From Eledone cirrhosa (taxonomy: Eukaryota), in NCBI GenBank assembly GCA_964016885.1, contig OZ024743.1, positions 324,198,001-324,262,000 on the forward strand: a stretch of DNA of 64,000 nucleotides, in the 5' to 3' direction. Shown one piece after another: positions 5,631 to 64,000 of this stretch. The first letter of the stretch is position 1. Every line of letters starts with the position of its first letter. Made by a program: the position numbers and the translations under genes. Below the pieces are notes generated by a model. The model saw nothing but the letters and a program-made list of their open reading frames with translations. It had not been told where the DNA came from and made no database searches.

Positions 5631-6888
5631 ACACACATACACAATCACTTTACACTCACACATAGGCACGCACATACACACTCACACATGCACAATATGT
5701 TTTTTATTTCAGTCATGTTTCTACAATAAGCAATTTACTTTCCAATCACAAGATCCTAGGTTCTATTCTAACCCTGCATTTGTTTTTGTAAACAGTTATT
5801 ACCCATATATTTCATCCTCTATGTTATTTGTACTATGTGATGAACATTTATGTAATTATATCCTAGAAATAAATTATCAAAATATCAGTTTATATTTAAT
5901 CACTTCCACATGTAATCAACATAAACTATAGAGTTTCTCTTATGCAAACAATTAATTCATGAAAATACAAATTTCTCAGTTTGTATGATAGCTCATATAT
6001 CCAGTAATCCTAGTATATATGGCATATCAATCCAAGACTCCAAAACTTAAATATGTTCAACGTTATAGCCATCATAGTTGATGGTATGGGTCTAATAGTA
6101 TTATAATAACTGTATAACTTTCTTGTCCGTCTGTCACACATGAGGCAACGATATGTTGCGAACATTCAAAATATTTTTTAATTAAGAATTTATGAAACAC
6201 GAATGTAAAACAAAAAATGAGAGGATGAAAACTTTCTATAATGTACTCTGTTTATAGCGTTGTTTATCTGTCTGCCATTATCTCTCTATCTATCTATCTG
6301 TCTGTCTAGACTTCTTTTACACTGTATGTCTTTCTCTCTGGCTGACTAATAACATGTGTTCCTTCACCTCTCGACTTTTTACTCTTGTCTCTTTCCATCT
6401 TCCAATAAAAGACTAGCATCTGAAATGTTAAGACTGTTTTCCAACTATATCAAGTGTTAAACAAATATTCCATTATTGTATTGCCATTGTCCACTTTTGT
6501 TGTTTTTTTCCTATTGACTTTTCTTGTTGCCAACTAATTGAGATATAAATTCTGGCTATAAATTCAAGATATATTTTATTTTGAATTTTTGCCACTTTTA
6601 GCACAGTCTAATAGCAAGTGATGTCATTCTTCCACATGTGACGTTACTGTTTGCTGCCAACTACCAAACTCTAGCAGTAATTCTTTAAGGCTCAGTCTGG
6701 ATAAATGGCTTCTCTCTCTGTAATTATTGAGTCCGCTGATGAAGTTTTTGCCATAGTCACTTGCACTGTACAACCACTGTATTCTGCAAGTTACAAATTG
6801 CACACTTATAAAAACCTCGGTGTCTGGACAACCATGTGCAACTGCCAAATTATGAATATACATTTTGTTAGCACTCGAGCAATCGAGA

Positions 6889-8608
6889 CTGATGGACCAG
6901 GTCATGAAAGTAACGGAAAGAGTTATAGTACAGTTGATTAGGGACCGGGTAAAACTAGATGTGATGCAATTTGGGTTTGTACCAGGAAAAGGCACCACTG
7001 ATGCCCTCTTCCTTGTGAGGCAGTTACAGGAAGAGTACCTAGCTAAAAGTAAGCTGCTCTACCTAACATTCGTCGATCTGGAGAAAGCCTTCGACAGAGT
7101 CTCCCGTGCTATAATCTGGTGGGCTCTTAAAAAATTAGGAGTAGATGAATGGCTTGTGAAAGCTGTACAAGCCATGAATAGGGGAGCAGTCAGCAAAGTT
7201 AGGGTTAGCAATGACTATAGCGAGGAATTTAGCATACAGGTCGGTGTCCACCAGGGCTCTGTTCTTAGCCCTCTCCTGTTCATTATAGTTTTGCAGGCAA
7301 TAATGGAGAAGTTTAAGACCGGATGCCCATGGGAATTACTATATGCGGATGATCTCGCACTTATAGCTGAATCTATGGTGGAACTAGAGAAGAAATTCCA
7401 AACATGGAAGCAGGGACTAGAAAGAAAGGGTCTCAAAGTCAACCTGACAAAGACGAAGGTTCTTGTAAGTAGATGAGAAAACAGAACCCAGATCCCCTCA
7501 GGGAAATGGCCTTGCTCAGTATGTAGGAAAGGTGTAGGTAGGAACTCCATCCTCTTCCCCAAATGCAAACAATGGGTACACAAGAGATTTAGTGGGATCT
7601 CAAGAAGCTTAACTAAGAATGTAGGCTTCATATGTAGCAGCTGCGCTGGGACAGCAAGCAGCAAACAGCCACAGGAAACAAGCACCACCAAACTCTAGGA
7701 GGGCTCTGTAGAAACAGTAGACAGCTTCTGCTACTTAGGTGACCAAATTAGCAGTGGAGGTGGGTGTTCAGAAAGTACAATAACTAGGGTAAGAACGGGA
7801 TGGAAGAAGTTCAGGGAGCTACTGCCACTGTTAGCTGCAAAAGGCTTTTCCCTCAAAATGAAAGGCAGACTGTATGATGCGTGTATACGAACAGCAATGT
7901 TACATGGTAGTGAGACCTGGTCGCTGAAGGTGGAAGACTTGCGTATATTAGAAAGAAACGAAGCCTGTATGCTCCGATAGATGTGTAATAGTAATATACG
8001 CGAACGGCAAAGCATAAACGAACTGAGAGAGACCGAGCATAAGAGGAGTCAAATGCTGTGCAGGAGAGGAGGTTGCGTTCGTATGGACATGTGATGCATA
8101 TGAAGGATGACAGCTGCATAAAAAGGTGCAGAACACTAGAAGTCGATGGAAGCCGTGGAGTGGGGAGACCCAAGAAGACCTGGGATGAGGTGATAAAAGC
8201 CGACCTTACCCAATGGCACCTCTCAACGGCGATGACACACGACCGTGACCTCTGGCATCACGCAGTAATACAGAAAACCTGACTCCCCACAGATACAAGG
8301 CAAAACTTGAGCAATTAGACAATATGCCCCCCACCCCTTCCCACTGCAAAGTGGTCGTGGAGGTGCCACGGCAAAAAAGCACCCAACCCACACTGTAAAG
8401 TGGACATGTAGGCACCACAGAAAAAAAGCACCCAGCACTCACTTCAAATGAGGTTGGTGTTAGGAAGGGCATCCAGCTGTTGAAATCAAACCAGAATCAG
8501 TTCCTGTATGAGCAAGACAAGGTCAGCCGACTGGACACTGCCCGCAACAAGACAACCCGTCTAACCCATGCTAGCATGGAAGAACGGACGTAAAACGCTG
8601 ATGATGAT
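6889..8608 (+). mobile_element. RTE-clade LINE, subfamily B, 5'-truncated pseudogenised RT
   Basis: [21 protein letters not shown] and LLYADD motifs; stops near 7474, 7695 and 7978 and a frameshift near 8030; 3' UTR and (GAT)n tail. Confidence 0.95.
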
Positions 8609-8780: not shown

Positions 8781-9504
8781 GTCATTAATAAAGTAACACA
8801 AGTGAAATAGCTACAAATATGAATGAAAAGTGGATATTATGGATTTATTGGAAGGAAATCTTGGCTTTTACAGCATTTACCAGAATATACTACTATATCA
8901 TATATATATATCATCATTTTATGTCCATTTTCCATGCTTACAGGGATTGAACAGATTGTGATATGCTTATGCATTTCATAGTACCCATGTCTGAATGCCC
9001 TTCTAACATCAACCATTTTACAGAGGCTACTGGGTGCATTTTATCACAGCACCTGCACTAGAAAGGCCATTATATTCTCAGTAGGATTAAAAGGGTCACC
9101 GTAACCCTACACTGTCACTATTTGAGCACTAAGAACTTTAAATGCATATTTAAACCACAGTGGTCTTCAATGATTGGGCTACATTATATTTTAATCATTT
9201 CAATATATCTATCTATGATGCAACAGGTAGCTGTAAGTGAACCAGGTAGCATTGCTTTGATCTAACCTCTTTTTATGTTATGTAGAATAACAACACACAC
9301 ATACACATTCACACAACCTTACACATGCACACACACATGCATGCGCACATAGACACATACATGTGCACAAACCTACATGCCTACACCTACATAGACAAAC
9401 ACACAATCTATAGCTTCCTTTAATGTTAGGTTTCTAGTTACAGTCTGTTTATACAGAGTTATTGTAGTGTTTTTGTCTTATTTTCTTTCCTTCTAGTTTA
9501 TCAA

Positions 9505-9900
9505 TATAGTGGGTGGGGCTGGTGGTGGTGGTGATGTTGGTGGTGATGATGTTGGTAATGTAGATGATAGTGATGGTGATGATGTTGGTAATGTAGATGA
9601 TAGTGATGGTGATGGTGATGATGTTGGTAATATAGGTGATAGTGATGGCTGTGATGATAGTAATGATAATGTTGGTGATGGTGCTGATGGTAATAATGGT
9701 TGTGATAATAGTGATAATGGTGGTGGTGATGGTGATGATGGTGATCATGTAAATGATGATGACTTTTTTTACTACATCACTATCAATATCATCATCACCC
9801 ATCTATCTCTACATCATCACCAACATCTCAACAAACACCACCATCTACATCTCCAATATGCCGCCGCCGCTGCAACCACCACCACCACCATCATCATCAT
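9505..9900. repeat. (GAT/GGT)n then (CAT/CAC)n low-complexity repeats
   Basis: Seen directly. Confidence 0.85.
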
Positions 9901-10044
9901 CTATATATATATCTCCAATACAACAACATCAAACAGTAGAAAATAATCAATATTCATTTTATAAAATTTCAAAAATCAAACAAATATACTGATTAAAAAA
10001 CAGTTTCATAGACATTTTGAAATGGAGCAACATTAAGATTGATG

Positions 10045-10825
10045 ATGGTGGTATAGAGTGGGTAGGGCTAGTGTGGGGAGCTGAGGGGAGTTAGTGAGGG
10101 GTAGATGGTGTAGGGGACCAGGGGGAGGTAGTGAGAGAGGAGGGAATAGGAAGAGATAGATAGGGTGGAGGTTGGAACAGAGGGGATATAGTGAAAGGAG
10201 AAGGGGTGGTGGATAGGGTGGAGGTTGGAGACAGGGTGGTGGTGAGAGGGGAGGGAGACGGGCAGGTGCATAGGGTGGAAGTTGGAGAGGGGGAAGTGGG
10301 GGGATAAGGGGGTAGGGGTGGTAGGGTGGGAAGGTGTGTGCACGCGTGTGCAAGAGGGGTGTGTGTGTGAAAGAAGTAGTGGAAAAGAGAGTTATTCAAA
10401 GAAATATAGAACAATAGAGATAGACACTAGAAGAGAGAGAGTGAGTAGAAATGAAAGAGTTATTCAGATAAAAATAGGGCAATAGGTAGAGATAGATGCT
10501 AGGAGAGAGAGAGAGAGAGGAGGGAGGGGTAAAAGGGGTTCTGAGAGAGAGAGGGAGACACAGAGGGAGGAGGTAGAGGGGAATCTGAGAGAGAGAGAGA
10601 GAGAAAGAGAGTTACACGGATATATAAAACTACAGATGGAGAGGAAAGACTAAGAGAAAGAAAGGAAGAGAATGAATAAGCAGTGAAAAGAGGGAGATGG
10701 GGTGAGAGGAATGAAACAGAGAGAGGGAGAAAGGAGAAGAGTGAAAGGAATGAAAGAGAGGAGAGAAAAGGGGGAGAGAGAGGGAGAAGGAGTGAGAGAG
10801 AAGGGGAGGGAAAAGAGAGGGAAAT
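10045..10825 (+). repeat. G-rich / GA-rich polypurine low-complexity tract
   Basis: Dense G3-G6 runs followed by (GA)n-rich sequence. Confidence 0.8.
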
Positions 10826-11009
10826 TTGGTTTTGACAAAGTCAAAAATGTTCAAACTGGGGATGATAGTGAAAAGCAAAAAGAAACAAATTGTAAAAGTA
10901 GATAATCAGATAAGAATATATCATCATCATCACCATATTCAACATCAACATGATCATCATCCAATGTCCATCCAGACACCAACTCATCCTTGATTTACAA
11001 GTATAATAT

Positions 11010-13226
11010 GTATCATCATCATCATCATCATCAACGTCCGTGTTCCACGCTTGCATGGGTTTGGACGGGGGTAGTCCCACTTGAGGCAAGAGTGATTGTC
11101 TTGCTCGCATAGGACTGTCTGGCAGGTTTTCTACAGTTGGATGCCCTTCCTAACACCAACCACATTTACAGTGTGGGTCTGGGAGGTTTTTACCGTGTTG
11201 CCTACACGGCCACATTACAGCGTGGACTGTGTGTTTTTTTGTCGTGACACCTACACGATCTCATTTGTTTCGGCCTGGATGGCGCGGCACCAACATAACT
11301 TTACATAGAATGGGGTGGTGTGGATGGGGTGGGGGTGGTGGGACGGGGTGTATTTTGTTAGAGATGCCTACTGGCTGGAGTAGGTTTTACTATATATTTA
11401 GGTAAGGCAGGTCTTCTCTGTTACTGAGTACCACCAAAGGTCTCGGTCCAGTGACATTGTCTTGGAGAGGTGTAAGTGTGTGATGTCTGAGTTTATCAGC
11501 TCGTCCCAGGTTTTTCTAGGTCTACCTATTCCGTGACTACCGTCTATCTTTATTGCCCTGCACTTTGTTATACAGCTATCGACTTTCATGCGCATCACGT
11601 GTCCATACCAACGTAGCCTTCTCTCGAGTAAACAACATCTGATCCCTCTTATCTCTAATTTTTTCCTTAGTCCGTTTATGCTTTGCCGTTCACGTATATT
11701 ACTGTTACACATCCAGCGGAGCATGCAAGCTTCGTTCCTCTCTAGTCTGCGTATATCCTCTGCACACAATGCCCAGGTCTCACTGCCATGCAACATTGCT
11801 GTTCGTATGCAGGCATCGTACAACCTGCCTTTCATTTTTAGGGAGAACCCTTTAGCAGCTAATAGTGGTATAAGCTCTCTGAACTTTTTCCAACCAGTTC
11901 TGACTCTAGCTACAGTACTTTCAGAGCACCCTCCCCCACTGCTGATTTTATTGCCCAGGTAACGGAAGCTGTCCACTATTTCTATAGAACCCTCTGCACA
12001 ATTGAAAGAGCTAGTATTTTGTGGGCACTTGCTGCTACTTATTGCACCAGAACACCGGCCACATGTAAAATCTATGTTCTTAGTTAGCTTACCTGTGATC
12101 CCACTACATCTTTTATGTACCCATACTTTGCATTTAGGACATAAAATGGAGTTTCTACCTACGCCTTTCCTACACACCGAGCACGACCATTTCCCAGAAG
12201 GGACCGCCGCCTTGTTTTCTTTCCTACAAACTAGAACTTTGGTCTTAGCCAGGTTAATTTTAAGTCCTTTTGACTCTAGGCCGTGCTTCCATGTTTGGAA
12301 TTTCTTCTCTAGCTCGGCCATTGATTCCGCTATGAGTGTCAGGTCGTCTGCGTATAGGAGTTCCCATGGGCAGCCTGTCTTGAACTCCTCTGTTATAGCC
12401 TGAAGGGCAATAATAAATAGTAGGGGACTGAGAACAGAGCCCTGATGGACGCCAACTTTTACGCTAAACTCTTCACTATATTCGTTGTTAATTCTAACCT
12501 TGCTGACTGTTTCTTTATACATGGCTTGTATAGCCCTCACAAGCCATTCGTCAACGCCTAGTTTTCTAAGAGCCCACCAGATAATGGAGCGGGGGACTCT
12601 GTCGAAGGCTTTCTCCAAGTCGACAAAAGCTAAGTAGAGGGGTTTACCTTTAGCTAGGAACTTCTCCTGTAGTTGTCGTACTATGAAAAGAGCGTCTGTG
12701 GTACTTTTGCCTGACACAAACCCGAACTGCATTTCATCTAGGTCAATTCTCTCTCTGATTAGTTGCGCTATTACTTTTTCCGTGACCTTCATGACCTGGT
12801 CGATTAATTTAATGCCTCTATAGTTACTCCTATCTAGGGCGTCTCCTTTACCCTTATAACAGTTAATGATGATGCTGCTATGCCAGTCCTTCGGAACAAC
12901 CCCATTCTGTACGACTTGGTTAACTATGCAAGTGACCATGGTGTGTCCCACCGTGCCAGATGCCTTCAGCATCTCAGCAACTATTTCCGAAGGCCCAGCC
13001 GCCTTACCCGTCTTCATATCCTTGATTGCCTTACTTATTATACTCCCCTCGACTAACACTGCTGGTCCCTCTATTGGGTCGATATGGGGGAGACTGTCTT
13101 TCTTCCATTTATTCTCCTCATTTAGTAACCTTTCATAGTGACACTTCCAAGCTACCTTCTTATCAGCGTCGGTGATGGCAAGTATGCCATCATCGTTAAG
13201 TACACACTTCTCCCCGACAATATCAC

Positions 13227-13227
<1 letters not shown>
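11010..13227 (-). mobile_element. RTE-clade LINE, subfamily A, 5'-truncated, open RT ORF (11398-13227)
   Basis: Uninterrupted frame from RDIVGEKCV through YKGKGD, NYRGIKL, DLEKAFD, QGSVLSP, YADD, a C4HC3 finger and RLRWYGH; (GAT)n tail; no APE endonuclease present. Confidence 0.97.
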
Positions 13228-13267
<40 letters not shown>

Positions 13268-13339
13268 GAGATTATATTTAATTTAAAAATTTAAAATTTT
13301 TTATAACTGATATAAAGCACTCAACAGATTAGTGGAGTA

Positions 13340-13596
13340 AATATACAATATATTAATAAATGGAAACTATATTTATAAAACCATATTTATTTTATTATAC
13401 ATATTTCAAGGACAACCAAGGCAAATTATGGTGCGCTTTCATCAGATAAAATACAGATTTGTTTATTTATTTATATTTATTTATAAAACAAATCTGTATT
13501 TTATCTGATGAAAGCGCACCATAATTTGCCTTGGTTGTATAATAAAATAAATATGGTTTTATAAATATAGTTTCCATTTATTAATATATTGTATAT
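13340..13596. repeat. ~120-bp-arm inverted repeat (fold-back) of a hammerhead-bearing repeat
   Basis: Arms are near-perfect reverse complements except for a ~13-nt deletion in the right arm; same family as 62900-63038. Confidence 0.9.
13388..13453 (-). ncRNA. candidate minimal type I hammerhead ribozyme
   Basis: TATTTTAT-CTGATGA-stem II (AAG..ACCA/TGGT..CTT)-GAAA-TATGTA-TA|ATAAAATA; 8-bp stem I. Confidence 0.65.
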
Positions 13597-14388
13597 CAAG
13601 TATGCATAGCTGATCTATTGGACTTTTACGAAGTGCAGAGGGATAAAGTGGATATAAAGAGTGGTGTACTCATGCACAGATACTATAAAATAGCTTATAA
13701 AATAGAGACAAAAAAAGTTGCTATTGGTCAAAAGCAACCTTTTTTTTCACTCAATTTTATAAGATATTTAATAGCATCTCCATGTATGAGCACACCACTC
13801 TTTATATTTAATATAGATATTTGTAGCTGTGAAGCTATACTAGTGACTCAAAGGCCTGGTATTTCAGGCCTAAGGACTTCATAACCCAAACTCCTGGCTT
13901 TAAAGTAACTGGCACAGCTTTACAGTTATAACATATATGACATAGAAATTGCACCCTCGATCATAAGATCATGGGCTAATTACTCTAAAAACCACTTAAA
14001 TTTGAATCAATCAGGGCATAAAACAGAACTGGGTGATAACAGAATGCATAACAAACGAATTTCAAATAAAATATTTTAAAATCTTCTTCAGATTAAATGG
14101 AAACTCTAGTAATTTGGATGTTTTACCTAAATGTTAAATTGAAAGCTATTACCATGCCAACAAAATTAAATAAACAAATAAGTAAAATTATGAATAAAGA
14201 CAAAACTATAAAAAGTTTGCCCTTGTGAAGTCTGTGTGATCTTTCCAAAATTAAATCTTAGTTAAAATGGTATTAGAACCAGCATACATATATATTGACC
14301 TTTCAAATACACATATCTTTTGATTTTGTGGATGGTGCCAAATTTTCCTGAAAACTAATCTCTATATATATATGTGTGTGTATTTATG

Positions 14389-14458
<70 letters not shown>

Positions 14459-14466
14459 ACCTACAG

Positions 14467-14544
14467 ATCATAAGCAACAAGTTCTCAGCAGATATATTGC
14501 AAATGTCAGAAGCTTTCGGATGGTTCCTGTTGATGTTATCTGAA
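14467..14544 (+). CDS. candidate host exon, possible C-terminal helix of a PX domain
   Basis: CTACAG|...GAA|GTAAAT, phase 0, compatible with 8689-8780. IISNKFSADILQMSEAFGWFLLMLSE resembles the PX end LxxSxxFxxFL. The polypyrimidine tract is poor and the opposite strand also has plausible splice sites. Confidence 0.3.
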
Positions 14545-17500
14545 GTAAATGGCAATTCAATGATTTACCAAAATGTCACACTTGAGTAGAATATCTCTTT
14601 TTGGGTAATAATTACATCAAATAATTTGGTAAATAGAAGAATCCAGCAAGAAATATTTTGGTGTCATTTTGCTGGTGTAAGTATTTGCAATGCATTAGCA
14701 TCATCGATTTAATATCTGCCTCAGCATGTTAACACAGGTTGAATAAGTTTATATAACAGTTTAGTCTCATTTAGGTCTATCCTTCATAGCATTAGTTCAT
14801 CTGCAGTTATGTAATGCAATGCTGAATGATAGTGAGATATGTACAGTGAATGCAACACTCTAGTGACTGTGAAAAATAAGATTATACAACTTTAAACTGC
14901 CCCTGGCCCTCTCATAAAAAACTGCTCATTTTAAAATGTTTATATTTATCTAAAAACGTAAAACGTATATTGTAATGTTATGTAAGAGCCATTGTTATGT
15001 TACACACATCAGCTTAAAAATGAAAATGTTAATTATATAACAAAATCCTTCAAAATTCTAATTTTTTCAAAATGATTTGAAAATCATAGGCAGTGTCTTT
15101 CATTAGAAATATGGTAATGAAAGGGTTAAAATACATAGATCAATAGTTACTACCCATCACAATATACCAAAAAAATTGATAGACTTGAAAAAGAATAGTT
15201 CTGGGGTCAATATAGTCAACTATATAAAAGCAATGTCCCAGCATGGCCACAGTCTAACAACTGAAACCAGTAAAAGATTAAAAGACATATTTCTCAGGAC
15301 TATGTCTGTCTTATTTGGAGCATCTAGAAAGGAGATATGTAGTGCAGACATACAACAATATTGTGTTTCTATCTGTGTATGGCAAGCATGTGAAAGACAA
15401 GGGTATCAGTGTTATGTCAATAGCAGTGGATAGAGAGGGTAGTTCTTGGTAGCGACATGTGCAGTGTATACACTGTTGTAGCATATATGTCTTGCTGTCT
15501 ACATACATACATGCCTACATACATACATACATACATACATATATACATATATACATACAGATCATCATCATTGTCATCAACACCACCATTACCATCATTA
15601 ACCTCTATATACACACAACGTCACCACCATCAACACCATCATCTTTTTTTGGCTTCTCTAAGTGTTTAGAATTTGATTCCATACTATTTATCTATGACAA
15701 TGATTTCAGATGAAGGGTATTCACCCCACAGGAAAAAAATTTGAATATTTTGTGGAGAATATTTTCTAAATTTTATATTATATATCTTTTTAATTCCCCA
15801 AAACATGTTTCTTATGTGGAAATGGGGCAGACTGTTTACCAAATTTCTCTCACATGGCATTGCTCAACCCATAGCTATAGTAGAAAATACTTTCAAAGGT
15901 ATCATGCAATGTGACTGAACATCAAACTATATTGTGGTAAAGAGAACTCCTTAACCAAACAACCATGCCATTGCCTGTTTTCTTATTTTAAAAAAATAGA
16001 GACCCCCATGGAATGAACTGGGTTCAAACAACAACAAACACTATATTCCTTGTGGGAGGCTTTCATCTCTTTTAAACTGAAATAACAACAAACTATTGTT
16101 TATATTTGAATTGTGTTTTCCAAACAATGGCAAATAATTACTTGTAATCTCCAAAGATTTCATACCCAAAAACTAAATTTAGTCTCTCCTCCTCAAACAG
16201 AGCTAACGATAAACTAGATCACAGTCACAAAAATCATTAGAACTCGTCCATTATCTATGATAATAATTGTGAATTTCTGTGCATGTATTCACAATGTTTT
16301 CTGGCGTTGTACTTAAGTATAAAAGTAAATAAACAACAAAATCAAATATTGCAAGTTCATATTGTTTTCCTGTATTGAAATAAATTTTGCCTTTTAATTG
16401 TAACTGATTTGCTAAACTGTGACTTAGAATAGAGGCTATGGAATATCATAGAATCAATAAAAAAGAATTGTATAATTTGAAAATCAGTACAGGTTCAAAT
16501 CTCATTGAAGATGGTTGGCTGAGATGATTCAATCATGCCTCTACAGGTTCATATTTGATCTTTGTTTTATTAAGTTGGGATATTTATATTCTAGGAGAGA
16601 GAGGAGGCAGGAGAGAGAAAGAGTGTGTGTGCGCGCACGTGTGAATGTTCTTTCTTTGTTTTGTAACATAGTACTTCAACAAATAGGGATTGATAACATA
16701 AATATTAGGTTGAGATATGTATAGAGATGGATACAATTGCTGAAATTCTCTAAGGTACTGTCCCAATATGACAACAATCTAGATGAATGACTAAAACCAA
16801 ATCACTGAAAGATCCGATTCATTTAAATTGTTATTATAACCACATTACAGAGTGTTCGGGGTGCCTTCTATCAACATTCGTACCATGATAGATTGAACCC
16901 AGTAGACTCTGTAAAGAGGCTGATGGTCAAACACAAAACATTTAGAATAGAGAGGAATTTTCAATTTGGCCATAAATGACAACCTTTCTTTCTAGTGTTG
17001 GTTTAGCAGCAGCTATGAGTGTTGGTTGCAAATGTAGTAATATTTACTAACCTGTCTTAGTAACATTCTCAGCTAGTGCTGATCCCAGCAAGACTCGCTA
17101 GCAAGTGTATGCAACAGTCTGTGTGGTGGCTACATTACAAGGCTGATGAAAACAAGCGATCTGTCTGTTGCAGAGTTGAAAAGACAAATGTGTCTGCTGT
17201 CAAAAATCTCTTATATATCAAAAGATTAGGCAGCCCTGTAAGAACTGTCCCTTTCTTAGATACTCTGACACTGTGAGCCTCTTAGAAGAGAACCGTTATC
17301 TAAGTTTGTGGCTCTGAGGTTGTAGGTCAGTCTTAAAGTAGTGGTGTGTGGCAGATCAAGAAAACCAACTCAGAAAAATGTGTCGAGATTTCGTTTCACT
17401 AGTGCCATGATAAAATACACCCAATATATCCAGTAAAGTGACAGTGCTGGAGACGTTATAAAATGCATCCAGTACACCTAGTAATGTGGTTGGTGATAGG

Positions 17501-18089
17501 AAGGGCATCCAACTATAAAAAACATGTCAAATATGGAACATATGAACAAGATGAGGTCTCTCTGACCTGTCAAGCCATGGACTGTAACAGCTTGTCCAAC
17601 CCATGTGAGGATGGAAGGCAGATGTAAAATGATGATAATGATAATGATGATTGTTCATTTGCTTTGATGATTATATACGTGTGGAACTATAAACATCAAC
17701 ACACCACACTTATTTAAACATGAGTAGCAGACAGTTTGAGACCTTGCAATTGTTCCAAATGCTTGGCTTCATTCTTACTGAGGGTCTCTCATAGCAAACA
17801 CACATCCTAAACATGGCTAGAGCTGCATCTAAATGACTGGCCCTGAGTATGTTGTGGTAGTTTTACCTGCATGTGTGTGTGCATGTGTGTGTGTGTGTGA
17901 GTATGTGTGGTTGCACAACTATCTATCTGTATATATAGCTTCATGGATTGTAACCTTACGTTACTGTAGGTCCCACCAACTTCAGCCACCGATGCATAGG
18001 TGGGTCCATTTAAGTCTAGTACAATGATATTCTGATACCTCCTTCCTACTATATATATATATATATATATATACATACATATATATATA

Positions 18090-18668
18090 TGGTGGCTGCC
18101 AACTCATTTTCGAGTACGGCCACTACTTTATATCCATGTAGGAGAACCCCTACCGATGCGCTGAACAAGTGTGACTTTTTAGTCCAGCCAGCGACTTGAA
18201 AACTCTGGTACAAACACTACACCTGTGACAATTATTGACACATAGTTCTGGGCCCATTGTACCATGTGACGAGAAATGCAGAGAGATCTCCAGATATAAA
18301 ACAATGCCTGTGCCATGAAGCTTTTATAGTGAGCAAAGGCACTGCACAAAGCCAGTCCCACTCTCTTAACCAAGATGATATTTACCAAAAAGAAGAACAA
18401 GTCAACATCATTGGATACCATCAGGGTTGCAGGTGTTATATCAGAGTTTTCCTTCTCCTAGAATTCTGCCTTGACAAAGGCTAAGGGGTCATCTCTCCCG
18501 GTGATTTTGGATGGCCATTGACTCTTAAGAGCTCCTTTGCCCTTTGACAGGTTTTGTTTTTAGTCCTGCAGGATGTCCAAAGTCACCCTCCTCACCAAGA
18601 AACCTTGGTGGGGTTGTCAGTTTAGTCGCTAACCATGGGACAGGTTGTACTGGGATACATGTTACGAG
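18090..18668 (-). mobile_element. short internally deleted RTE-like retroelement (putative 5' UTR joined to ORF end)
   Basis: 3' part translates CSVCTRVFKSLAGLKSH (C2H2-like finger as at RTE ORF ends); 5' part is homologous to 34393-34560; flanked by (TA)n and (TACA)n. Confidence 0.55.
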
Positions 18669-18786
18669 TATATATTTACATACATACATACATACATATA
18701 TGCGTGAACCCCATTCCATCGAGCTTTAAACCCTCTGGTAAAGTTTATACCCAATAATAACAACCCTATTATTATTAATATTATAT

Positions 18787-18948
18787 GGATTGGCAGTATC
18801 GGTAGAGGGTCGGACACCATGCTCTGCAGCAAAGAGTTACGGCCCTTTATGGTCGAAGTTCAAATCCCGCCGAAGTTAACTTTGCCTTTCATCCTTACGG
18901 GGTCGATAAAATAAAGTACCAGTAATGTACTGGGTAATTGCTGGCCTT
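18787..18948 (+). mobile_element. Nin/Deu-domain tRNA-SINE
   Basis: A box TGGCAGTATCGGT, B box GTTCAAATCC, GCCTTTCATCCTTACGGGGTCGATAAAATAAAGTACCAG. Confidence 0.85.
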
Positions 18949-18950
18949 TA

Positions 18951-18987
<37 letters not shown>

Positions 18988-18994
<7 letters not shown>

Positions 18995-19163
18995 TAAAAA
19001 TAGACCGAGAAACAAGAATGTCCTTCATCAGTAGTCTGCTGATTATCTCTGGTATTTCTTCACATTAAAGACTATTTAGTCTTTAATGCAAAGAAATACC
19101 AACGATAATCAGCAGACTACTGATGAAGGACATGCTTGTTTCTCGGTCTATTTTTATTCATAT
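18988..19163. repeat. ~85-bp-arm palindrome containing CTGATGAAGG
   Basis: TGAATAAAAATAGACCGAGAAACAAG...CTTGTTTCTCGGTCTATTTTTATTCA, centre AAAGACTA-TT-TAGTCTTT. Confidence 0.9.
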
Positions 19164-19412
19164 GTTCATATTCGCAACAACGCAGCGCACCATTTTTCAC
19201 TCACACATATATATATATATATATATACATATATATACATATATATACATATATATATATGTACATCAATATTCATCTTTTTCCATTTCTCCGAGGGTTC
19301 TAAACCCCACTATCAGGCTAAATAATTTCTTTAATTTCTTCAATCAAAATACGGCGATAGCTTATATCTATAATCTCAAACTCGCTCGCTGTTTCGAAAA
19401 TATTCTTACTTG

Positions 19413-19711
<299 letters not shown>

Positions 19712-19712
<1 letters not shown>

Positions 19713-21320
19713 ATGCCCTCTTCCTTGTGAGGCAATTACAGGAAAAGTACCTAGCTAAAAGTAAGCCACTCTACTTGGCATTTGTCGACCTTGAGAAAGC
19801 CTTTGACAGAGTTCCACGTGCAGTAATCTGGTGGGCTCTTAGAAAACTAGGAGTAGATGAATGGCTTGTGAAAGCGGTACAAGCCATGTATAGGGGAGCA
19901 GTCAGCAAAGTTAGGATTGGCAATGAGTATAGCGAGGAATTTAGCGTACAGGTTGGTGTCCACCAGGGCTCTGTTCTTAGCCCTCTCCTGTTCATCATAG
20001 TCCTGCAGGCAATAACGGAGGAGTTTAAGACCGGATGCCCATGGGAACTCCTGTATGCTGATGACCTCGCACTCATAGCTGAATCTATGGTAGAACTAGA
20101 GAATAAATTCCAAACCTGGAAGCAGGGACTAGAGAGAAAGGGCCTCAAAGTCAACATGACAAAGACTAAGGTCCTTATAAGTAGACGAGAAAACAGAACC
20201 CAGATCCCCTCAGGGAAATGGCCTTGCTCAGTATGTAGGAAAGGTGTAGGTAGGAACTCCATTCTCTGCCCCAAATGCAAACAATGGGTACACAAGAGAT
20301 GTAGCGGGATCTCAGGAAGCTTAATTAAGAATGTAGGATTCACATGCAGCAGCTGTGCTGAAACAGCAAGCAAACAGCCACAGGAAACAAGTACCACCAA
20401 TCTCTGGGAGGGCCCTGTAGAAACAGTAGACAGCTTCTGCTACCTAGGTGACCGAATTAGCAACGGAGGTGGGTGCTCAGAAAGTACAATAACTAGGGTA
20501 AGAACGGGATGGAAGAAGTTTAGGGAACTACTACCACTGCTAGCTGCAAAAGGCTTCTCCCTCAGAATGAAAGGCAGACTGTATGATGCGTGTATCCGAA
20601 CAGCGATGTTGCATGGTAGTGAGACCTGGGCGCTGAAGGTGGAAGACTTACGTAGATTAGAGAGAAACGAAGCCTGCATGCTCCGATGGATGTGTAACAG
20701 TAATATACGTGAACGACAAAGCATAAAGGAATTGAGAGAGAGACTGAGCATAAGAGGAATCAAATGCTGCGTGCAGGAGAGGCGGTTACGCTGGTATGGA
20801 CATGTGATGCGTATGAAGGATGACAGCTGCATAAAAAGGTGCAGAGCACTAGAAGTTGATGGAAACCGCGGAGTGGGGAGACCCAAGATGACTTGGGATG
20901 AGGTGATAAAAGCCGACCTTACCCAACTACACCTCTCAAAGTCAATGACACACGACCGTGACTTCTGGCGTCACGCAGTAATACAGGGTACCCGACCTCC
21001 CATGGGTACATGCTGAAGCATATAAACAATAAGCCCCCCCCCCCCCCCACCGCAAGGTGGTCGTGGAGGTGCCACGGCAAAAAAGCACCCAGCCCACACT
21101 GTAAAGTGGACGTGTAGGCGCCACGAAAAAGCACCCAGCACTCACTGTAAATGAGGTTGGTGTTAGGAAGGGCATCCAGCTGTAGAAATCAAGCCAGATC
21201 AGTTCCTGTATGAGCAAGGCATGGTCAGCCGACCAGACACTGCCCACAACAGGACAACCCGTCTAACCCATGCTAGCGTGGAAGAACGGACGTAAAACGG
21301 TGATGATGATGATGATGATG
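19712..21320 (+). mobile_element. RTE-clade LINE, subfamily B, 5'-truncated, open RT frame to 21016
   Basis: DLEKAFD, QGSVLSP, YADD, C4HC3 finger and RLRWYGH; 3' UTR; (GAT)n tail running into (TA)n. Confidence 0.97.
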
Positions 21321-21644
21321 ATATATATATATATACATATATATATATATGTATATATACATATATATATATGTGTGTGGTTGTCCATCCATCTATCTAT
21401 ATGCTTGTGTGCTAACATTACTCCCACTCTCAGTCAGCCATTGTTTCAGAAGTAAATGTTTGTTTCTATAGTAACCACAGATACAAATACACCCACATAT
21501 TATTGTGTTTCTTTTCTTTGTTGAAGGAAGTGGGGTGGTGGATGAAAAAAAAGGGTAGGGGAAGTTCATTTGTCTTCTCCCTCCCCCTACTATCACTTCT
21601 CAGCAAATACACCCTCCCACTACAAACTATTTTGTTTACATATG

Positions 21645-21696
<52 letters not shown>

Positions 21697-21917
21697 CACT
21701 GTTACTATTACTACTAGCACTAAATCCACCCTACTACTGCTATCATTACAATCACTATGCCTACAACTTTTACTACTACTACTACCATTACCACCAACAC
21801 CACTATTCCCACCACTACTACTACCACCACCACTATTACTACCACTACCAGTACCACCAACACCACTACCACCACAACTACTACCACCAATACCACTACT
21901 ACTACCACCACCACTAC
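21645..21917. repeat. (CTA/CCA)n trinucleotide repeat
   Basis: Seen directly. Confidence 0.9.
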
Positions 21918-23177
21918 TGGATGAAATCATTGGAAGATGATTTCCAAAGTTACCTGAGACAGAATTATTCATCTCAACAAGTATCTATTTTATTCAACAA
22001 AATTACTGTTTCCTGAGCTATTTTCAACAATATTAGAAAATCCAGAGGATTGGAATGCTTCAGAATTAGTGGAAGCAAAGGGATTCATTTCAATCTTAGA
22101 AGATTTTCAGTTTAAATCTTAATTAGTGGTTTATGAAACCATACGGAGTGGCTCAAAAATTCTGTTTTCAATTCTTCAAAAAGTTTTGCTTGATATTTCA
22201 AAGTGCATTCATGGGGTTGAAAACTTCAAGAAACGATTGATTGATATCAAGAACAAGTTTGAGGAATTTTACTGGTATCGCTGAATCACTGGAGAAGCGT
22301 GATCGATATCAAGAACCAGAAGCTGTTTTAAGAACTTTGTTTAACAACATTTTGGATGAAGTTATTGTTCACATTGAACAAAGATTTAAAACAATGAGAG
22401 AGTTCAGATTTGTTGAATTATTGAATCCAAAGCATTTTCACAGTTACAAAAAAAAAATTCTGATGGAAGCGATTTCATCCTTGGATGTCTATATAAACAT
22501 ATGGATTTGGATGGATTGAAATGAGAGCTGAAATCAGTTTATGCAGCAGATTTTGCAAAGCAAGCGTCAAGCATCCAGGAAGTCGCAGACATAATATGAG
22601 AACTTAAACTAAATCAATCTCTGGCAGAAGTAACAAAATTATTACGCCTGATTCTGACCATACCTGCCACATCTACTTCCTGTCAGAGATTGTTTTCCTC
22701 ATTAAAGTGATTAAATAATTATATGAGGTGTTCTCAAAGTGAAGACAGATTGTGTAATTTGGTCTTCCTTTCCATTAATAGAAACCTTTTGAAGAAGATG
22801 AAGGTAGAGCATGGTGCTGATACATTTTGTAGTAAAGTGATCGATGAATTTGCCAAAAAGAAACAAAGAATTGAATTGATTTAGAAATACATTTTAAACA
22901 ACTTATTAGAAGGTTTTATTATTTACTCAGATTTCTCTCATAACCAATAACGGTCATCATAGTAGGCTTGTCGCCAGGGTGTTACTAAAGGAGGGGACAT
23001 CAAGTCCAGTGGAGAGAGGTATCAAGTCTGAAGCATGTTGGTAGAAGTGCATTTTCTCACATCAAAATTAGCTCATATCACATTCAAAAATGGGGGAGAG
23101 GACAAAGAATAATTTTCTGATGATGGGGGGGGGGGGGGAGTAAGGCCCCACAACCCCACTCTCTGCCATAGCAATTG
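21918..23177 (+). mobile_element. hAT transposon, 3' half, degenerate transposase
   Basis: KLLRLILTIPATSTSCQRLFSSLK*LNNYMRCSQSEDRLCNL matches the hAT dimerisation domain; multiple stops and frameshifts; GC-rich TIR-like end near 23140-23177. Confidence 0.85.
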
Positions 23178-49722: not shown

Positions 49723-49991
49723 TATTGTTATACTTTGGGAGGGTCATGTTGCCAATAAGAAACACATGCACCAGTTGCTTTCACTTCAATTTATTATAAA
49801 TTAAATTTATAAAGTTAGGAATTTATAAATTTTTGGTTGGTTGGTTGGTTCCACAACCAGACGATTGTTCATATATTGTCAAAGTTCTTTCGTCACACAT
49901 TCTGTGACCTCTTCAGTGACTGGGGATCCTTTTCTTTGTTTTTGTGCCTCTCCTTTGTTCTGTCCTACGCCATCTTGTTTTTGTGTGTGTT
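49723..49991 (-). mobile_element. dispersed repeat carrying a hammerhead-like motif (probably PLE-derived)
   Basis: Reverse complement of 63113-63368. Confidence 0.75.
49878..49920 (-). ncRNA. candidate minimal hammerhead ribozyme
   Basis: GTCA-CTGAAGA-G-GTCACA(GAATG)TGTGAC-GAAA-GAAC-TT|TGAC; one extra G before stem II and a very short stem III. Confidence 0.5.
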
Positions 49992-57861: not shown

Positions 57862-59197
57862 TCATCATCATCATCATCATCATCAGGTTTAGCGTCCGTG
57901 TTCCACGCTTGCATGGGTTTGGACGGGGGTTTTCCCACTTGAGGCAAGAGTGGTTGTCTTGCTCGCATAGGACTGTCTGGCGGGTTTTCTACAGTTGGAT
58001 GCCCTTCCTAACACCAACCACATTTACAGTGTGGGGCTGGGAGGTTTTTACCGTGTTGCCTACACGGCCACATTACAGCGTGGACTGTCTGGCGGGTTTT
58101 CTACAGCTGGATGCCCTTCCTAACACCAACCACATTTACAGTGTGGGGCTGGGAGGTTTTTACCGTGTTGCCTACACGGCCACATTTACAGCGTGGACTG
58201 TGTGTTTTTTGTCGTGACACCTACACGATCTCATTTGTTTCGGCTTGGATGTTGTGGGACCAACATAACTTTACATTGAAAGGGGCGGTGTGGGTGGGGT
58301 GGAGGTGGTGGGACAGGGGTGTGTTTTGATAGAGATGCCTACTGACTGTAGTAGGTTTTTACTTTGTATTTAGGTAAGGCGGGTCTTCTCTATTACTGAG
58401 TACCGCCAAAGGTCTCGGTCCAGTGACATTGTCTTGGAGAGGTGTAAGCGTGTGAGGTCGGAATTTATCAGCTCGTCCCATGTTTTTCTGGGTCTGCCTA
58501 CTCCGTGGCTACCGTCTATCTTTATTGCCCTGCACTTTGTTATACAGCTGTCGTCTTTCATGCGCATCACGTGACCGTACCAACGTAGCCTTCTCTCGAG
58601 TAAACAACATCTGATCCCTCTTATTTCTAATTTTTTCCTTAGTTCGTTTATGCTTTGCCGTTCACGTATATTACTATTGCACATCCAGCGGAGCATGCAA
58701 GCTTCGTTCCTCTCTAGTCTGCGTATATCCTCTGCACACAATGCCCAGGTCTCACTGCCATGCAGCATTGCTGTTCGTATGCAGGCATCGTATAACCTGC
58801 CTTTCATTTTTAGGGAGAACCCTCTAGCGGCTAATAGTGGTATAAGCTCTCTGAACTTTTTCCATCCAGTTCTGACTCTAGCTACTGTACTTTCAGAGCA
58901 CCCTCCCCCACTGCTGATTTTGTCACCCAGATAACGGAAGCTGTCCACTATTTCTATAGAACCCTCTGCGCAGTTGAAGGAGCTAGTATTTTGTGGGCAC
59001 TTGCTGCTACTTATTGCACCAGAGCACCGGCCACATGTAAAATCTATGTTCTTAGTTAGCTTACCTGTGATCCCACTACATCTTTTATGCACCCATACTT
59101 TGCATTTGGGACATAAAATGGAGTTTCTACCTACGCCTTTCCTACACACTGAGCATGGCCATTTCCCCGATGGGACCGCCGCCTTATTTTCTTTCCT
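57862..59197 (-). mobile_element. RTE-clade LINE, subfamily A, 5'-truncated, open frame to 58370
   Basis: C4HC3 finger, FRYLG and RLRWYGH; ~112-bp tandem duplication in the 3' UTR; (GAT)n tail. Confidence 0.97.
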
Positions 59198-59864
59198 AAA
59201 TACATTTATTCATGGATATAACTGTACATCTATGTATACTTATAAACATATATTATTCTTACACATATACATCCAATCAGATAAACACATTCACACACAC
59301 ACTCTCTCTCACACATAAACATACTTATATGCATACATCAATACAAGATATAAGTCAGATAAAATGCTAAACTTCCTTCTAAAATGCCAAAGCAGTAGAT
59401 AAATGCTAAAATTTTCTTTCCAAGATAGGGAATATGAGATTTAATCAAATAGGGATATAGGAACTACTCAGGGGTTTTTATAAATACTGAATCATCAATC
59501 ATAATTAAATTAAATGAATTATAGCATCATTTAACCGTTTTGTGACTATATTTCTAATGAAATACACTCTGTTTTGCTTTCTTACTGGTTGTAATTATTA
59601 GACAGTGGCTATGTTGGGTCCCCCATCTTAAAGGGATTTAGTCAATCATATTGAACTAAGTACATATTTTTCAAGTCTGGTACATATTTTATTGATCTCT
59701 TTTTGTCGAACTGCTAAGTCAGTAAATGTAAATGGAGATAGACATAGGCACACACACATATCCTTAAAAAAAACACATGAGAGAAATATAGGAAACAGAA
59801 AACGTGGAAGAGACAAGCACATGGATAATTCCCACTCTTCTGGGGATTGTTGTAGTGGTGAGCC

Positions 59865-59961
59865 TTGTTATTCTAGAGTTCCACCTGCGTACTTGCAGGA
59901 TCATCAGATAAGTCTTGTCTGATGATCCTGTGAATGCACAGGTGAAACTCTAGAGTAACAA
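59865..59961. repeat. palindrome made of two head-to-head hammerhead copies
   Basis: TTGTTATTCTAGAGTTCCACCTG...TCATCAGATAAG-T-CTTGTCTGATGA...CAGGTGAAACTCTAGAGTAACAA. Confidence 0.9.
59915..59961 (+). ncRNA. minimal type I hammerhead ribozyme with palindromic stem III
   Basis: TTGT-CTGATGA-TCCTGTG(AATG)CACAGGT-GAAA-CTCTAGAG-TA|ACAA; GUA triplet; U10.1-U11.1 mismatch. Confidence 0.75.
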
Positions 59962-61433: not shown

Positions 61434-61649
61434 TAATAATGAGTAGGAACGAGGTGTCAAAGTATCATCATTATATTATATATTTATTCATGTGTGATGC
61501 ACAATTCACGATTGATTAGCTCAAGGTACGATACGTATCGATCGCGCCAGATTCTGGAATCAATAGCTCATCAGACTCGTGGTTTCCTCAAGGGAACCAT
61601 GTATCTGATGAGCTATATAATATAATGAGGATACTGTGAAACCTCGTTT

Positions 61650-61936
61650 CTAACTTTGCCTTTCATCCTTACGGGGTCGATAAAATAAAGCACCAGTAAT
61701 GTACTGGGATAATTGCTGGCCTTGTGCCAAAAAGTAGAAACAATTATTATTATTGGCAGTATCGGTAGAGGGTCAGACGCCATGCTTTGCAGCACAGTTA
61801 CGTCCCTTTTTTGACTGAGTTTAAATCCCGGCAAGGTTGACTTTGCCTTTCATCCTTACGGGGTCGATAAAATAAAGTACCAGTAATGTACTGGGTGATT
61901 GCTGGCCTTGTGCCAAAAGTAGAAACAATTATTATT
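61650..61936 (+). mobile_element. tandem Nin-domain SINEs (partial 61650-61750 plus full 61752-61936)
   Basis: Nin-like domain and AAAAGTAGAAACAATT end occur twice. Confidence 0.85.
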
Positions 61937-62096
61937 AACACTCTGCTTATGAAAGAGACCAACCACAGTATAACAGCAAATGTACAATACCTCATAATAT
62001 ACTAAACCGGGACCACCTAGGGATCAGGTGCTCAAGTTGATGAAACAATAATAACTTTAAGTTACAAACCATTAATATATATATATATATATATAT

Positions 62097-62376
62097 GACC
62101 GGGTGATGTGTTGTTTCCTTGAGCAAGACACTTTATTTCACATTGCTCCAGTTTACTCAGCTGTAGAAATGAGATGATAGGGACCGGAGTCTCTATCATT
62201 CCACTGTAAAGTGGTCGTGGAGGTGCCACGGCAAAAAAGCACCCAGCACTCACTGTAAATGAGGTTGGTGTTAGGAAGGGCATCCAGCTGTAGAAATCAA
62301 GCCAGCATCAGTTCCCGTCCCACCCTTGCAAGCAGGGAAAAGCGGACGTAAAACGAAATGATGATGATGATGATGA
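62097..62376 (+). mobile_element. CORE-type SINE with RTE-derived tail, 5'-truncated
   Basis: Matches the 23340-23705 and 63475-63778 copies. Confidence 0.9.
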
Positions 62377-62380
62377 TATA

Positions 62381-62831
62381 TATATGAATGTATATATAGT
62401 GTATTTTGCAATACACTGTATGCTTAATTAAAAGCATTTTGAAGACAATACGCTATTGTTTTAAAGTAGCGACATTGTCGCTTACTTAAATTTTCGGCAA
62501 ACAGGGGAAGATAAGTTGACAGCTCTGTTTCGTACTTTTTGGTACTTATCAAAACTCACTACTCTCCCTGTCTGCCGAAAATTATGTGTGTTGGATTCTT
62601 ATAGAATTCCAGTAACAATCAGGAACTGATTATACAGAGCGGTCGCCGGTCCAGCAGAAATTGAAAATTAGAATTGGTGCTCTGAAATAGCGATATATAT
62701 ATATGAATGTATATACAGTGTATTTTGCAATACACTGTATGCTTCATTAAAAGCATTTTGAAGACCATACGCTTTTGTTTTAAAGTAGCAACATTGTTGC
62801 TTACTTAAATTTTCGGCAGACCCCCTGTCTG
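62381..62831 (-). mobile_element. ~319-bp hairpin-rich unit in partial tandem (retrozyme-like or PLE terminal repeat)
   Basis: 62381-62500 is repeated at 62700-62820; contains a hammerhead; 62621-62686 recurs at 63048-63113. Confidence 0.6.
62489..62583 (-). ncRNA. type I hammerhead ribozyme with U3-A8 variant core and long stem I
   Basis: AATTTTCGGCAGACAGGG..TGAGTT-TTGATAA-GTAC(CAAAAA)GTAC-GAAA-CAGAGCTG-TC|AACTTA..CCCTGTTTGCCGAAAATT. Confidence 0.82.
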
Positions 62832-62917
62832 GGAATAATCATACCTTATCAGTTGAATATTCATCTGATAAGGTATGATTATCCTTGGCTATGTCAAAAT
62901 TTATAAAACACTCTTTG

Positions 62918-62980
62918 TATTTTATCTGATGAAAGCATACCAAAGTTTTTTGGTACTCTTGAAATATATATAATAGAATA
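62918..62980 (+). ncRNA. candidate minimal type I hammerhead ribozyme
   Basis: TATTTTAT-CTGATGA-AAGCATACCAAAG(TTT)TTTGGTACTCTT-GAAA-TATATA-TA|ATAGAATA. Confidence 0.7.
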
Positions 62981-63112
62981 AATATGGTTTTATAAATATA
63001 GTTTCCATTTATTTAATATCATTGAATATTTACTCCAGAAATCTCTCAGGAACTGATTTTACAGAGCGGTCACCGGTCCAGCAGAAATTGAAAATTAGAA
63101 TTGGTGCTCTGA

Positions 63113-63368
63113 ACACACACAAAAACAAGATGGCGTAGGACAGAACAAAGGAGAGGCACAAAAACAAAGAAAAGAATCCCACATCACTGAAGAGGTCACA
63201 GAATGTGTGACAAAAGAACTTTGACAATATATGAACAACCGTCCAGTTGTGGAACCAACCAACCAACTGGAAATTTACAAATTTCTTAAATTTATAATAA
63301 ATTGGAGTGAAAGCAACTGGTGCGTGTGTTTCTTATTGGCAACATGACCCTCCCAAAGTATAACAATA
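63113..63368 (+). mobile_element. second copy of the 49723-49991 repeat; hammerhead GAAA mutated to AAAA
   Basis: CTGAAGAGGTCACAGAATGTGTGAC-AAAA-GAACTTTGAC. Confidence 0.75.
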
Positions 63369-63474
63369 TCGGTTTCAACACACGTTTTCAGATAAAGAAT
63401 CTTGCTAAACAAATTCAGAAACGATATATATATATATATATATGATGATGATGATGATGATGATGATATATATA

Positions 63475-63778
63475 TTGCAATCGAAAGGTTGTGCGTTCAA
63501 TACTCGGACCGGGTGATGTGTTGTTTCCTTGAGCAAGACACTTTATTTCACATTGCTCCAGTTTACTCAGCTGTAGAAATGAGATGATAGGGACTACGGT
63601 CCCTATCATTCCACTGCAAAGTGGTCGTGGAGGTGCCACAGAAAAGAGCACCCAGTACTCACTGTAAATGAGGTTGGTGTTAGGAAGGGCATTCAGCTGT
63701 AGAAATCAAGCCAGAATCAGTTCCTGTCCCACCCTTGCAAGCAGGGAAAAGCGGACATAAAATGATGATGATGATGAT
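63475..63778 (+). mobile_element. CORE-type SINE with RTE-derived tail
   Basis: B-box-like GTTCAATACTC, CCTTGAGCAAGACACTT, RTE-B-like tail, (GAT)n. Confidence 0.9.
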
Positions 63779-63784
63779 ATATAT

Positions 63785-63840
63785 ATGTTTAATATAGAAA
63801 TGGCTTCTAGTCCTGTAGAAGCCATTCCTATATTAAACAT
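63785..63840. repeat. ~25-bp-arm palindrome
   Basis: ATGTTTAATATAGAAATGGCTTCTA-GTCCTG-TAGAAGCCATTCCTATATTAAACAT. Confidence 0.85.
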
Positions 63841-64000
63841 TTATACTCTATGATGCATTGAGTACCTTACTTACTGTGGTTACCCCCGATTGAACCTGGG
63901 ATACACACATATATATAAAGAATAATAAACACCAAAGAGTCAAAAGTTGTCAAACTAACACATGAACCCTACTGCATTGAGCTTTAAACCTTCTGGTTAA

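What the first reader, a model, noticed from the sequence alone, without database searches (positions are those of the whole stretch)
62381..62831. ~319-bp non-coding hairpin-string unit in partial tandem: retrozyme-like candidate
Seen: next to the hammerhead are four consecutive hairpins (TAGTGTATT/AATACACTG, ATGCTT/AAGCAT, AAGACAATA/TATTGTTTT, GTAGCGACA/TGTCGCTTAC). This block repeats 319 bp later. In the second copy one hairpin has a paired change (GCGACA/TGTCGC to GCAACA/TGTTGC, which could also be CpG decay) and the hammerhead is deleted between the arms of its outer stem (CGGCAGAC^CCCCTGTCTG). Known: animal non-LTR retrozymes are tandem monomers of a few hundred bp with one type I hammerhead and yield circular RNAs. 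Inference: this may be such a family.
Basis: partly seen in the sequence, partly recalled or inferred. Interest (0 to 1): 0.72.

Follow-up and report, generated by a model that had tools for sequence, protein, structure and literature searches.

The report
Retrozyme-type hammerhead repeat, decayed dimer
A 319-base non-coding repeat carrying a hammerhead ribozyme motif with a rare paired change in its core occurs in many copies in this animal and a second one, and is most likely a retrozyme, a known kind of small parasite of Penelope-like retroelements; this particular copy is a broken pair, and no RNA circle has been shown.

Summary
A minus-strand type I hammerhead (core 62552-62546, cleavage 62518/62517) has a U3-A8 core and HH9-like loops, inside a strongly folded 319-bp unit (z -7.7). 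Public runs show a multi-copy family in two organisms, a compensatory change in helix I, and one head-to-tail junction outside this locus. The unit is bounded by (AT)n with no room for an ORF. The paired change it cited is private to copy 2 and sits at CpGs. Best reading (0.65): a new animal non-LTR retrozyme family, likely mobilised by Penelope-like elements. This locus has one ribozyme and would not make a circle. Two intact ribozymes in tandem, cleavage and circular RNA are untested; no genome was held. The scan has reported hammerhead and retrozyme-like repeats in other genomes, nothing on this sequence. New member of a known kind.

The parts
62376..62385 (.). (AT)5 run at the 3' boundary (minus strand) of the array; likely insertion target
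   Evidence: sequence
62387..62494 (-). Block A of copy 1: string of hairpins 3' of the ribozyme (arms 62397-62418, 62420-62437, 62442-62462, 62466-62485)
   Evidence: z -4.82; covered by many variant contigs and reads
62490..62582 (-). HHR1: canonical type I hammerhead with long closing stem. Core UUGAUAA 62552-62546 (U3-A8), helix II 62545-62532 with loop CAAAAA, GAAA 62531-62528, short helix III 62528-62519, predicted cleavage after GUC between 62518 and 62517
62583..62692 (-). 5' part of the monomer (spacer x and block B 62619-62686); non-coding, only weakly folded alone (z -1.47)
62693..62704 (.). (AT)6 tract at the head-to-tail junction between block B and block A of the next copy
   Evidence: bridged in organism B by X4 record 12
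62695..62821 (-). Block A' of copy 2 (94% to copy 1; 7 differences)
62822..62831 (-). Remnant of the closing stem of the deleted HHR1 in copy 2; junction close to locus-specific
   Evidence: depth at 62820-62839 near zero (X1 80, X4 0, X5 0, X6 0.5)
62833..63045 (+). Inserted fragment of another repeat family: palindromic head 62835-62882 plus HHR2, a minimal-type hammerhead (core CUGAUGA at 62926, long helix II, AU palindromic helix III, predicted cleavage after 62972), opposite to HHR1
   Evidence: relatives at 13326-13596
63046..63113 (-). Block B' of copy 2 (97% to 62619-62686; shares the rare letter at 62644/63071 with copy 1)
63112..63423 (+). Abutting third hammerhead family (decayed minimal core at 63187; intact relative at 49916 minus); neighbour, not part of the unit

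Best explanation
This is a decayed two-copy insertion of a multi-copy, non-coding 319-bp repeat with one type I hammerhead motif per unit, most likely an animal non-LTR retrozyme family that borrows the enzymes of Penelope-like elements (PLEs). Shown: the motif, the fold, the multi-copy family, covariation in helix I, (AT)n boundaries, one head-to-tail junction in a second organism. Inferred: intact tandem loci are read through on the ribozyme strand, self-cleave at GUC (probably as dimers, given the short palindromic helix III), and monomers are ligated into circles. Inferred: a PLE reverse transcriptase primes at a nicked TA microsatellite and copies more than one turn, which would give an array that starts and ends at the (AT)n tract and runs through the cleavage site, as here. 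In copy 2 the ribozyme hairpin was skipped or deleted and a fragment of a second, PLE-type hammerhead family took its place, during or after insertion. This locus has one family ribozyme and would not release a monomer.
For: Canonical anatomy: helix II 4 bp with loop CAAAAA identical to the HH9 consensus loop, internal loop in helix I; the C of HH9's UAC is present in 185 of 313 and 171 of 325 X6 reads at 62559. Canonical ribozymes mark retrozymes and minimal ones PLE termini (PMC7229834 section 13; PMC4209133); the two neighbouring families are of the minimal type. U3-A8 is a natural, active covariation (PMC3088659 passage). Family: 7,794 contigs laid in X1, 76 in X4 (organism B), 567 in X5, 29,837 reads in X6 over the stretch (these totals include the HHR2 family). 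A-to-HHR1 joints in differing haplotypes in X1 and X6. Helix I U-A to C-G change (62554 with 62516) on one X5 contig, with 62554 changed in 273 of 315 and 290 of 333 X6 reads; not at a CpG. A second double change keeps hairpin 4 paired in X5 and X6. Helix III gains AG to a perfect 12-nt palindrome in the X5 contig and about 108 X6 joint reads (tables 4 and 5c). B-to-A junction bridged by X4 record 12 (62667-62773, 9 other letters, organism B). Few laid contigs run on into unlike sequence (0, 0.02, 0.04 in X1, X4, X5) and X4 and X5 records reach 62690, past block B. Copies 1 and 2 share C at 62644/63071 where 338 of 363 and 475 of 500 X6 reads have T, so they have one origin. Unit length and GC 35% within the reported 150-450 bp and under 50%.
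Against: No record shows two intact ribozymes in tandem; only 1 of the 24 listed pieces (8,489 not shown) bridges B to A. In X1 the summed depth over HHR1 (9,000-23,000) is more than tenfold below blocks A (up to 515,000) and x-B (up to 344,000), so many copies may carry a more diverged ribozyme or none; U3-A8 is supported only for laid records, by absence from the 40 rows shown (119 not shown). Some listed changes break pairs (62557, 62566, 62576, 62593), and most changes are unphased. The active fold is 5.9 kcal/mol above the minimum-energy fold in the window copy. No target-site duplication other than microsatellite. No PLE protein was found in the window (20 of 140 ORFs scanned). In the preprint only 1 of 9 predicted Xenopus dimers cleaved in vitro.
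Confidence: 0.65

Rival explanations
1. The unit is a dispersed non-autonomous PLE derivative or small satellite whose RNA is not circularised; short tandems come from PLE-type more-than-unit copying of linear RNA or DNA-level duplication, and the ribozyme is vestigial in most copies.
For: Low summed depth over HHR1 relative to blocks A and B in X1 and X4; decay in both local copies; monomer proportion of retrozyme families ranges from 0 to 1 and 8 of 9 tested dimers did not cleave (preprint).
Against: Compensatory helix I change and HH9-like loop letters in other copies suggest selection on a working ribozyme; junction shared with a second organism.
Confidence: 0.18
2. The unit is the pseudo-LTR (3' end) of a coding PLE, and the locus is a partial tandem of 5'-truncated copies.
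For: PLEs carry hammerheads in their terminal repeats, form partial tandems and favour TA microsatellites (PMC8557442 passages); U3-A8 is known from PLE hammerheads of Schistosoma; two PLE-type hammerhead families are nested here.
Against: Both local copies end at the same phase of block B; family records run on to 62690 like the window and no listed loose end leads from block B into other sequence (24 shown, 561 not shown); ribozyme is canonical, not minimal; no PLE ORF seen.
Confidence: 0.14
3. A one-off local duplication of an AT-rich palindromic stretch with a chance hammerhead.
For: Only one copy of the unit pair in the 64-kb window; Rfam score below the gathering threshold.
Against: Multi-copy in two organisms with covariation; 0 motif hits in shuffles.
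Confidence: 0.03

Closest known systems
Animal non-LTR retrozymes (Cervera and de la Pena 2020, PMC7229834; sections 13, 14, 17 and passages read)
   Same: Non-coding unit of about 320 bp, low GC, one canonical type I hammerhead, highly self-paired, head-to-tail junction, co-occurring with minimal-hammerhead elements.
   Different: U3-A8 core and an (AT)n tract at the unit junction are not described in the sections read; tandem intact ribozymes and circular RNA not shown here.
Vertebrate retrozymes as PLE derivatives (Li, Clavereau, Pollet, bioRxiv 10.64898/2026.07.22.740005; parts 1-3 of 5 read, supplements closed)
   Same: Monomers, dimers and multimers of hammerhead repeats proposed as non-autonomous PLE derivatives; mean unit sizes near 310-340 bp in amphibians, insects and a coral.
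   Different: No mollusc among the classes named; by its criterion (two consecutive complete ribozymes) this locus is not an active retrozyme.
Hammerheads in PLE pseudo-LTRs (Cervera and de la Pena 2014, PMC4209133; parts 1-2 of 4 read)
   Same: Type I topology, palindromic helix III, U3-A8 covariation reported for Schistosoma Cercyon elements; HHR2 and the third family fit this minimal type.
   Different: HHR1 has a 4-bp helix II and tertiary-contact loops, and no ORF is linked.
Rfam Hammerhead_HH9 (RF02275)
   Same: Full-length match, same loop II, 27.3 bits, E 3.3e-4.
   Different: Below the gathering score of 52; U3-A8 core; repeat context.

Membership tests
Type I hammerhead ribozyme | Conserved core with three helices, helix I open | tested here: met
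   all 12 constrained pairs valid; core has the U3-A8 covariation
Type I hammerhead ribozyme | Self-cleavage | not testable with these tools
   Needs in vitro transcription; U3-A8 reported active
Non-LTR retrozyme | Unit of 150-450 bp, GC under 50%, non-coding | tested here: met
   319 bp, GC 35%; no long open frame over the unit
Non-LTR retrozyme | Canonical (not minimal) type I hammerhead | tested here: met
   alignment; variant at 62559
Non-LTR retrozyme | Multi-copy family | tested here: met
   many variant contigs and reads in organisms A and B; no copy number obtainable
Non-LTR retrozyme | Tandem units with two consecutive intact ribozymes | tested here: inconclusive
   Not met at this locus (copy 2 deleted); head-to-tail junction in one X4 record; no record long enough to show two ribozymes; RAD reads are cut at AATT sites before the junction
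Non-LTR retrozyme | Expression as monomeric circular RNA | not testable with these tools
   No RNA run was available to lay
Pseudo-LTR of a coding Penelope-like element | Flanks an RT plus GIY-YIG ORF | tested here: inconclusive
   None in the window; no listed loose end beyond block B; genome not held
Pseudo-LTR of a coding Penelope-like element | Minimal hammerhead (long helix II, extra base after A9) | tested here: not met
   HHR1 has a 4-bp helix II and no extra base; some PLEs do carry canonical forms
Pseudo-LTR of a coding Penelope-like element | Insertion at TA microsatellites, partial tandems | tested here: met
   (AT)n at 62376 and 62693; one locus only; shared with the retrozyme reading

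The most novel reading that the evidence does not exclude
A retrozyme family, probably the first in a cephalopod (host recalled from repeat resemblance, not tested), whose canonical hammerhead is fixed for the rare U3-A8 core and whose circular RNA carries its own (AU)n tract that anneals to nicked TA microsatellites to prime a PLE reverse transcriptase. The chimeric second copy would then record a template switch between a retrozyme circle and a PLE RNA in one integration event, direct evidence for the proposed but unproven PLE-retrozyme partnership.
Probability: 0.2. Interest if true: 0.65.

Novelty: new member of a known kind. Interest (0 to 1): 0.42.

Why it matters
Retrozymes are reported from many animal phyla, so one more family is expected. 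Two details add some value: a canonical hammerhead with the U3-A8 core spread through a repeat family, and an array phased on an internal (AT)n tract beside PLE-type elements, which offers a testable route for how animal retrozymes are primed and inserted, a step the papers read leave open.

Tried and rejected
No whole genome is held, so no genome-wide array count. Sequencing-run search: no RNA holder listed; this is no evidence on expression. X5 is of unknown kind and was not treated as RNA. RAD read ends in X6 (62605/62608, 62662, 62746, 62811, 62898) coincide with GAATTC and AATT sites, so they are library ends, not RNA ends, and X6 is a biased sample that cannot bridge the junction. X1 may be the sample the window came from. 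Pattern scans: viral contigs 0 hits in three scans; metagenome contigs 1 hit, L001, an unrelated contig with a single U3-A8 hammerhead-like motif; prokaryote genomes 4 hits without helix II pairing, taken as chance. The 38-aa frame of the neighbouring third family found 0 relatives, so its PLE identity rests on the ribozyme type and 7 synonymous against 6 non-synonymous codon changes, which is weak. Two protein searches with window LINE reverse transcriptases did not name the host beyond animal-like hits. An early guess that 61940-62070 is a GIY-YIG tail found no support. Other Rfam hits (microRNA and sRNA models) are hairpin-level chance. Literature searches: hammerhead ribozyme + octopus, cephalopod + hammerhead (20 of 129 listed, mostly sharks), octopus + Penelope + transposable elements + ribozyme, U3-A8 / U3A8 / C3U G8A, PLE + hammerhead + microsatellite showed no report of this family; the giant squid paper counts 235 hammerhead-1 hits without analysis (passage). 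Supplements of these papers were not read and may list such families; Repbase and Dfam could not be searched.

Full report
Observation. The block 62376-62502 recurs at 62695-62821, 94% identical, 319 bp on. The unit folds far better than shuffles on the minus strand (z -7.68, 0 of 100) and also on the plus strand (z -4.88). The hammerhead (HHR1) is on the minus strand: core UUGAUAA at 62552-62546, a 4-bp helix II with loop CAAAAA, GAAA, a short helix III, and predicted cleavage after GUC at 62518/62517, all closed by a long stem. A motif scan found 3 hammerheads in the window and none in 30 shuffles. Rfam gives HH9 at 27.3 bits, E 3.3e-4, below its gathering score. The core differs from the consensus at positions 3 and 8 together (U3-A8), a covariation reported as natural and active (PMC3088659 passage) and seen in Schistosoma PLE hammerheads (PMC4209133).

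Copy 2 is longer than stated. Block B (62619-62686) recurs at 63046-63113 (97%), so the locus is A-HHR1-x-B followed by A'-[deletion and insertion]-B'. The inserted 62833-63045 carries a different hammerhead (HHR2) on the plus strand with a long helix II and an AU palindrome for helix III, with relatives at 13326-13596. A third, minimal-type family abuts at 63112-63423, intact at 49916.

The family. No genome is held. The run search listed 8 runs, 5 holding the stretch or part of it, from 2 studies. I laid 4 of them on 62480-63050 at 80% likeness. Blocks A and x-B and HHR1 are covered by many variant contigs and reads in organism A (X1, X5, X6) and organism B (X4); the depths are not copy numbers. 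The junction from the deleted ribozyme into the insertion is nearly uncovered, and the HHR2 family mostly runs on into other sequence at 63010-63029, so the chimera looks locus-specific. A-to-HHR1 joints occur in several haplotypes. One X5 contig changes both sides of a helix I pair (62554 with 62516, U-A to C-G), and 273 of 315 and 290 of 333 X6 reads carry the 62554 change; several wobbles of the window copy are Watson-Crick pairs in other copies, while four listed changes break pairs. At 62559, 185 of 313 and 171 of 325 X6 reads match the HH9 consensus where the window does not. Helix III exists in two forms, the window's and one two bases longer that is a perfect palindrome, which fits dimeric cleavage. 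Positions 3 and 8 are not among the 40 variant rows shown (119 hidden), so U3-A8 appears general among laid records. Against this, summed depth over HHR1 in X1 is more than tenfold below blocks A and B, so many copies may have a more diverged ribozyme or none.

Tandem or PLE terminus. X4 record 12 bridges block B, the (AT)n tract and block A with 9 other letters in organism B, so the head-to-tail junction is not private to this locus; it is 1 of 24 pieces shown. X4 and X5 records follow the window to 62690, few contigs run on into unlike sequence, and none of the 24 loose ends shown leads from block B, so there is no sign of an ORF attached. The tool cut records at 62691-62718 and the RAD library is cut at AATT sites before the junction, so the junction's frequency is unmeasured. 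Copies 1 and 2 share a letter at 62644/63071 that over 90% of X6 reads lack, so they have one origin, and they have since diverged by 3-5%. No record shows two intact ribozymes in a row.

Mechanism. Following PMC7229834 (sections 13, 14, 17), I infer read-through transcription of intact tandem loci, self-cleavage, ligation to a circle of about 319 nt, and copying by a PLE reverse transcriptase. The array here begins and ends at the (AT)n phase and passes through the cleavage site, which needs a circular or multimeric template; priming by a nicked TA microsatellite on the unit's own (AU)n tract would explain this. That step is my inference from one locus. PLE bias for TA repeats and inverted or partial tandem insertions is described in PMC8557442 (passages). 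Loss of the ribozyme across its closing hairpin and capture of the HHR2 fragment could be a template switch or later damage; I cannot tell them apart. This locus has a single family ribozyme and would not release a monomer.

Comparison and verdict. It works like an animal non-LTR retrozyme and meets the size, GC, ribozyme-type and multi-copy criteria; tandem intact ribozymes are inconclusive and circular RNA is untestable here, so membership is likely (0.65), not shown. The host is an animal; the resemblance of its SINEs to octopus is recalled, not tested (searches did not name it). My searches showed no report of this family, but supplements and repeat databases were not seen. Earlier scan notes had nothing on this sequence or genome and several hammerhead or retrozyme-like repeats in other genomes, none checked here. 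Verdict: real, new member of a known kind, interest 0.42.

Noticed in passing
window 13326-13596: Second member of the HHR2 family: intact minimal hammerhead on the minus strand (core 13445) with an inverted partial copy beside it, an arrangement typical of PLE insertions.
   Followed up: partly
window 63112-63423, 49723-49991 (minus), 116-231: Third hammerhead family; intact core at 49916, decayed at 63187; its 3' part reads as a short conserved frame ending at a TA run, possibly a PLE ORF start; no protein relatives found.
   Followed up: partly
window 61444-61652: 39-nt inverted repeat (90%) with CTGATGAG on both strands (61605 plus, 61574 minus) around a palindromic centre; may be a further hammerhead-like or inverted element.
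   Followed up: no
window 62097-62356 and 63507-63765: Two 94%-identical copies of a SINE-like repeat frame the whole hammerhead cluster, and a 28-nt (ATG)n(AT)n run occurs at 62358 and 63448.
   Followed up: no
window 11398-13290 (minus), 19361-21016, 6856-7476, 58370-59209 (minus): LINE ORFs with reverse transcriptase and/or a PHD finger; an 80%-identical protein is filed under a bacterial MAG, probably host contamination.
   Followed up: partly
L001 2640-2715: Single hammerhead-like motif with U3-A8 core and CAAAAA loop in an otherwise unrelated metagenome contig, suggesting the variant occurs in other organisms.
   Followed up: partly
window 63780-63845 and 59865-59961: Long near-perfect hairpins (30-nt and 48-nt arms), not examined.
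   Followed up: no
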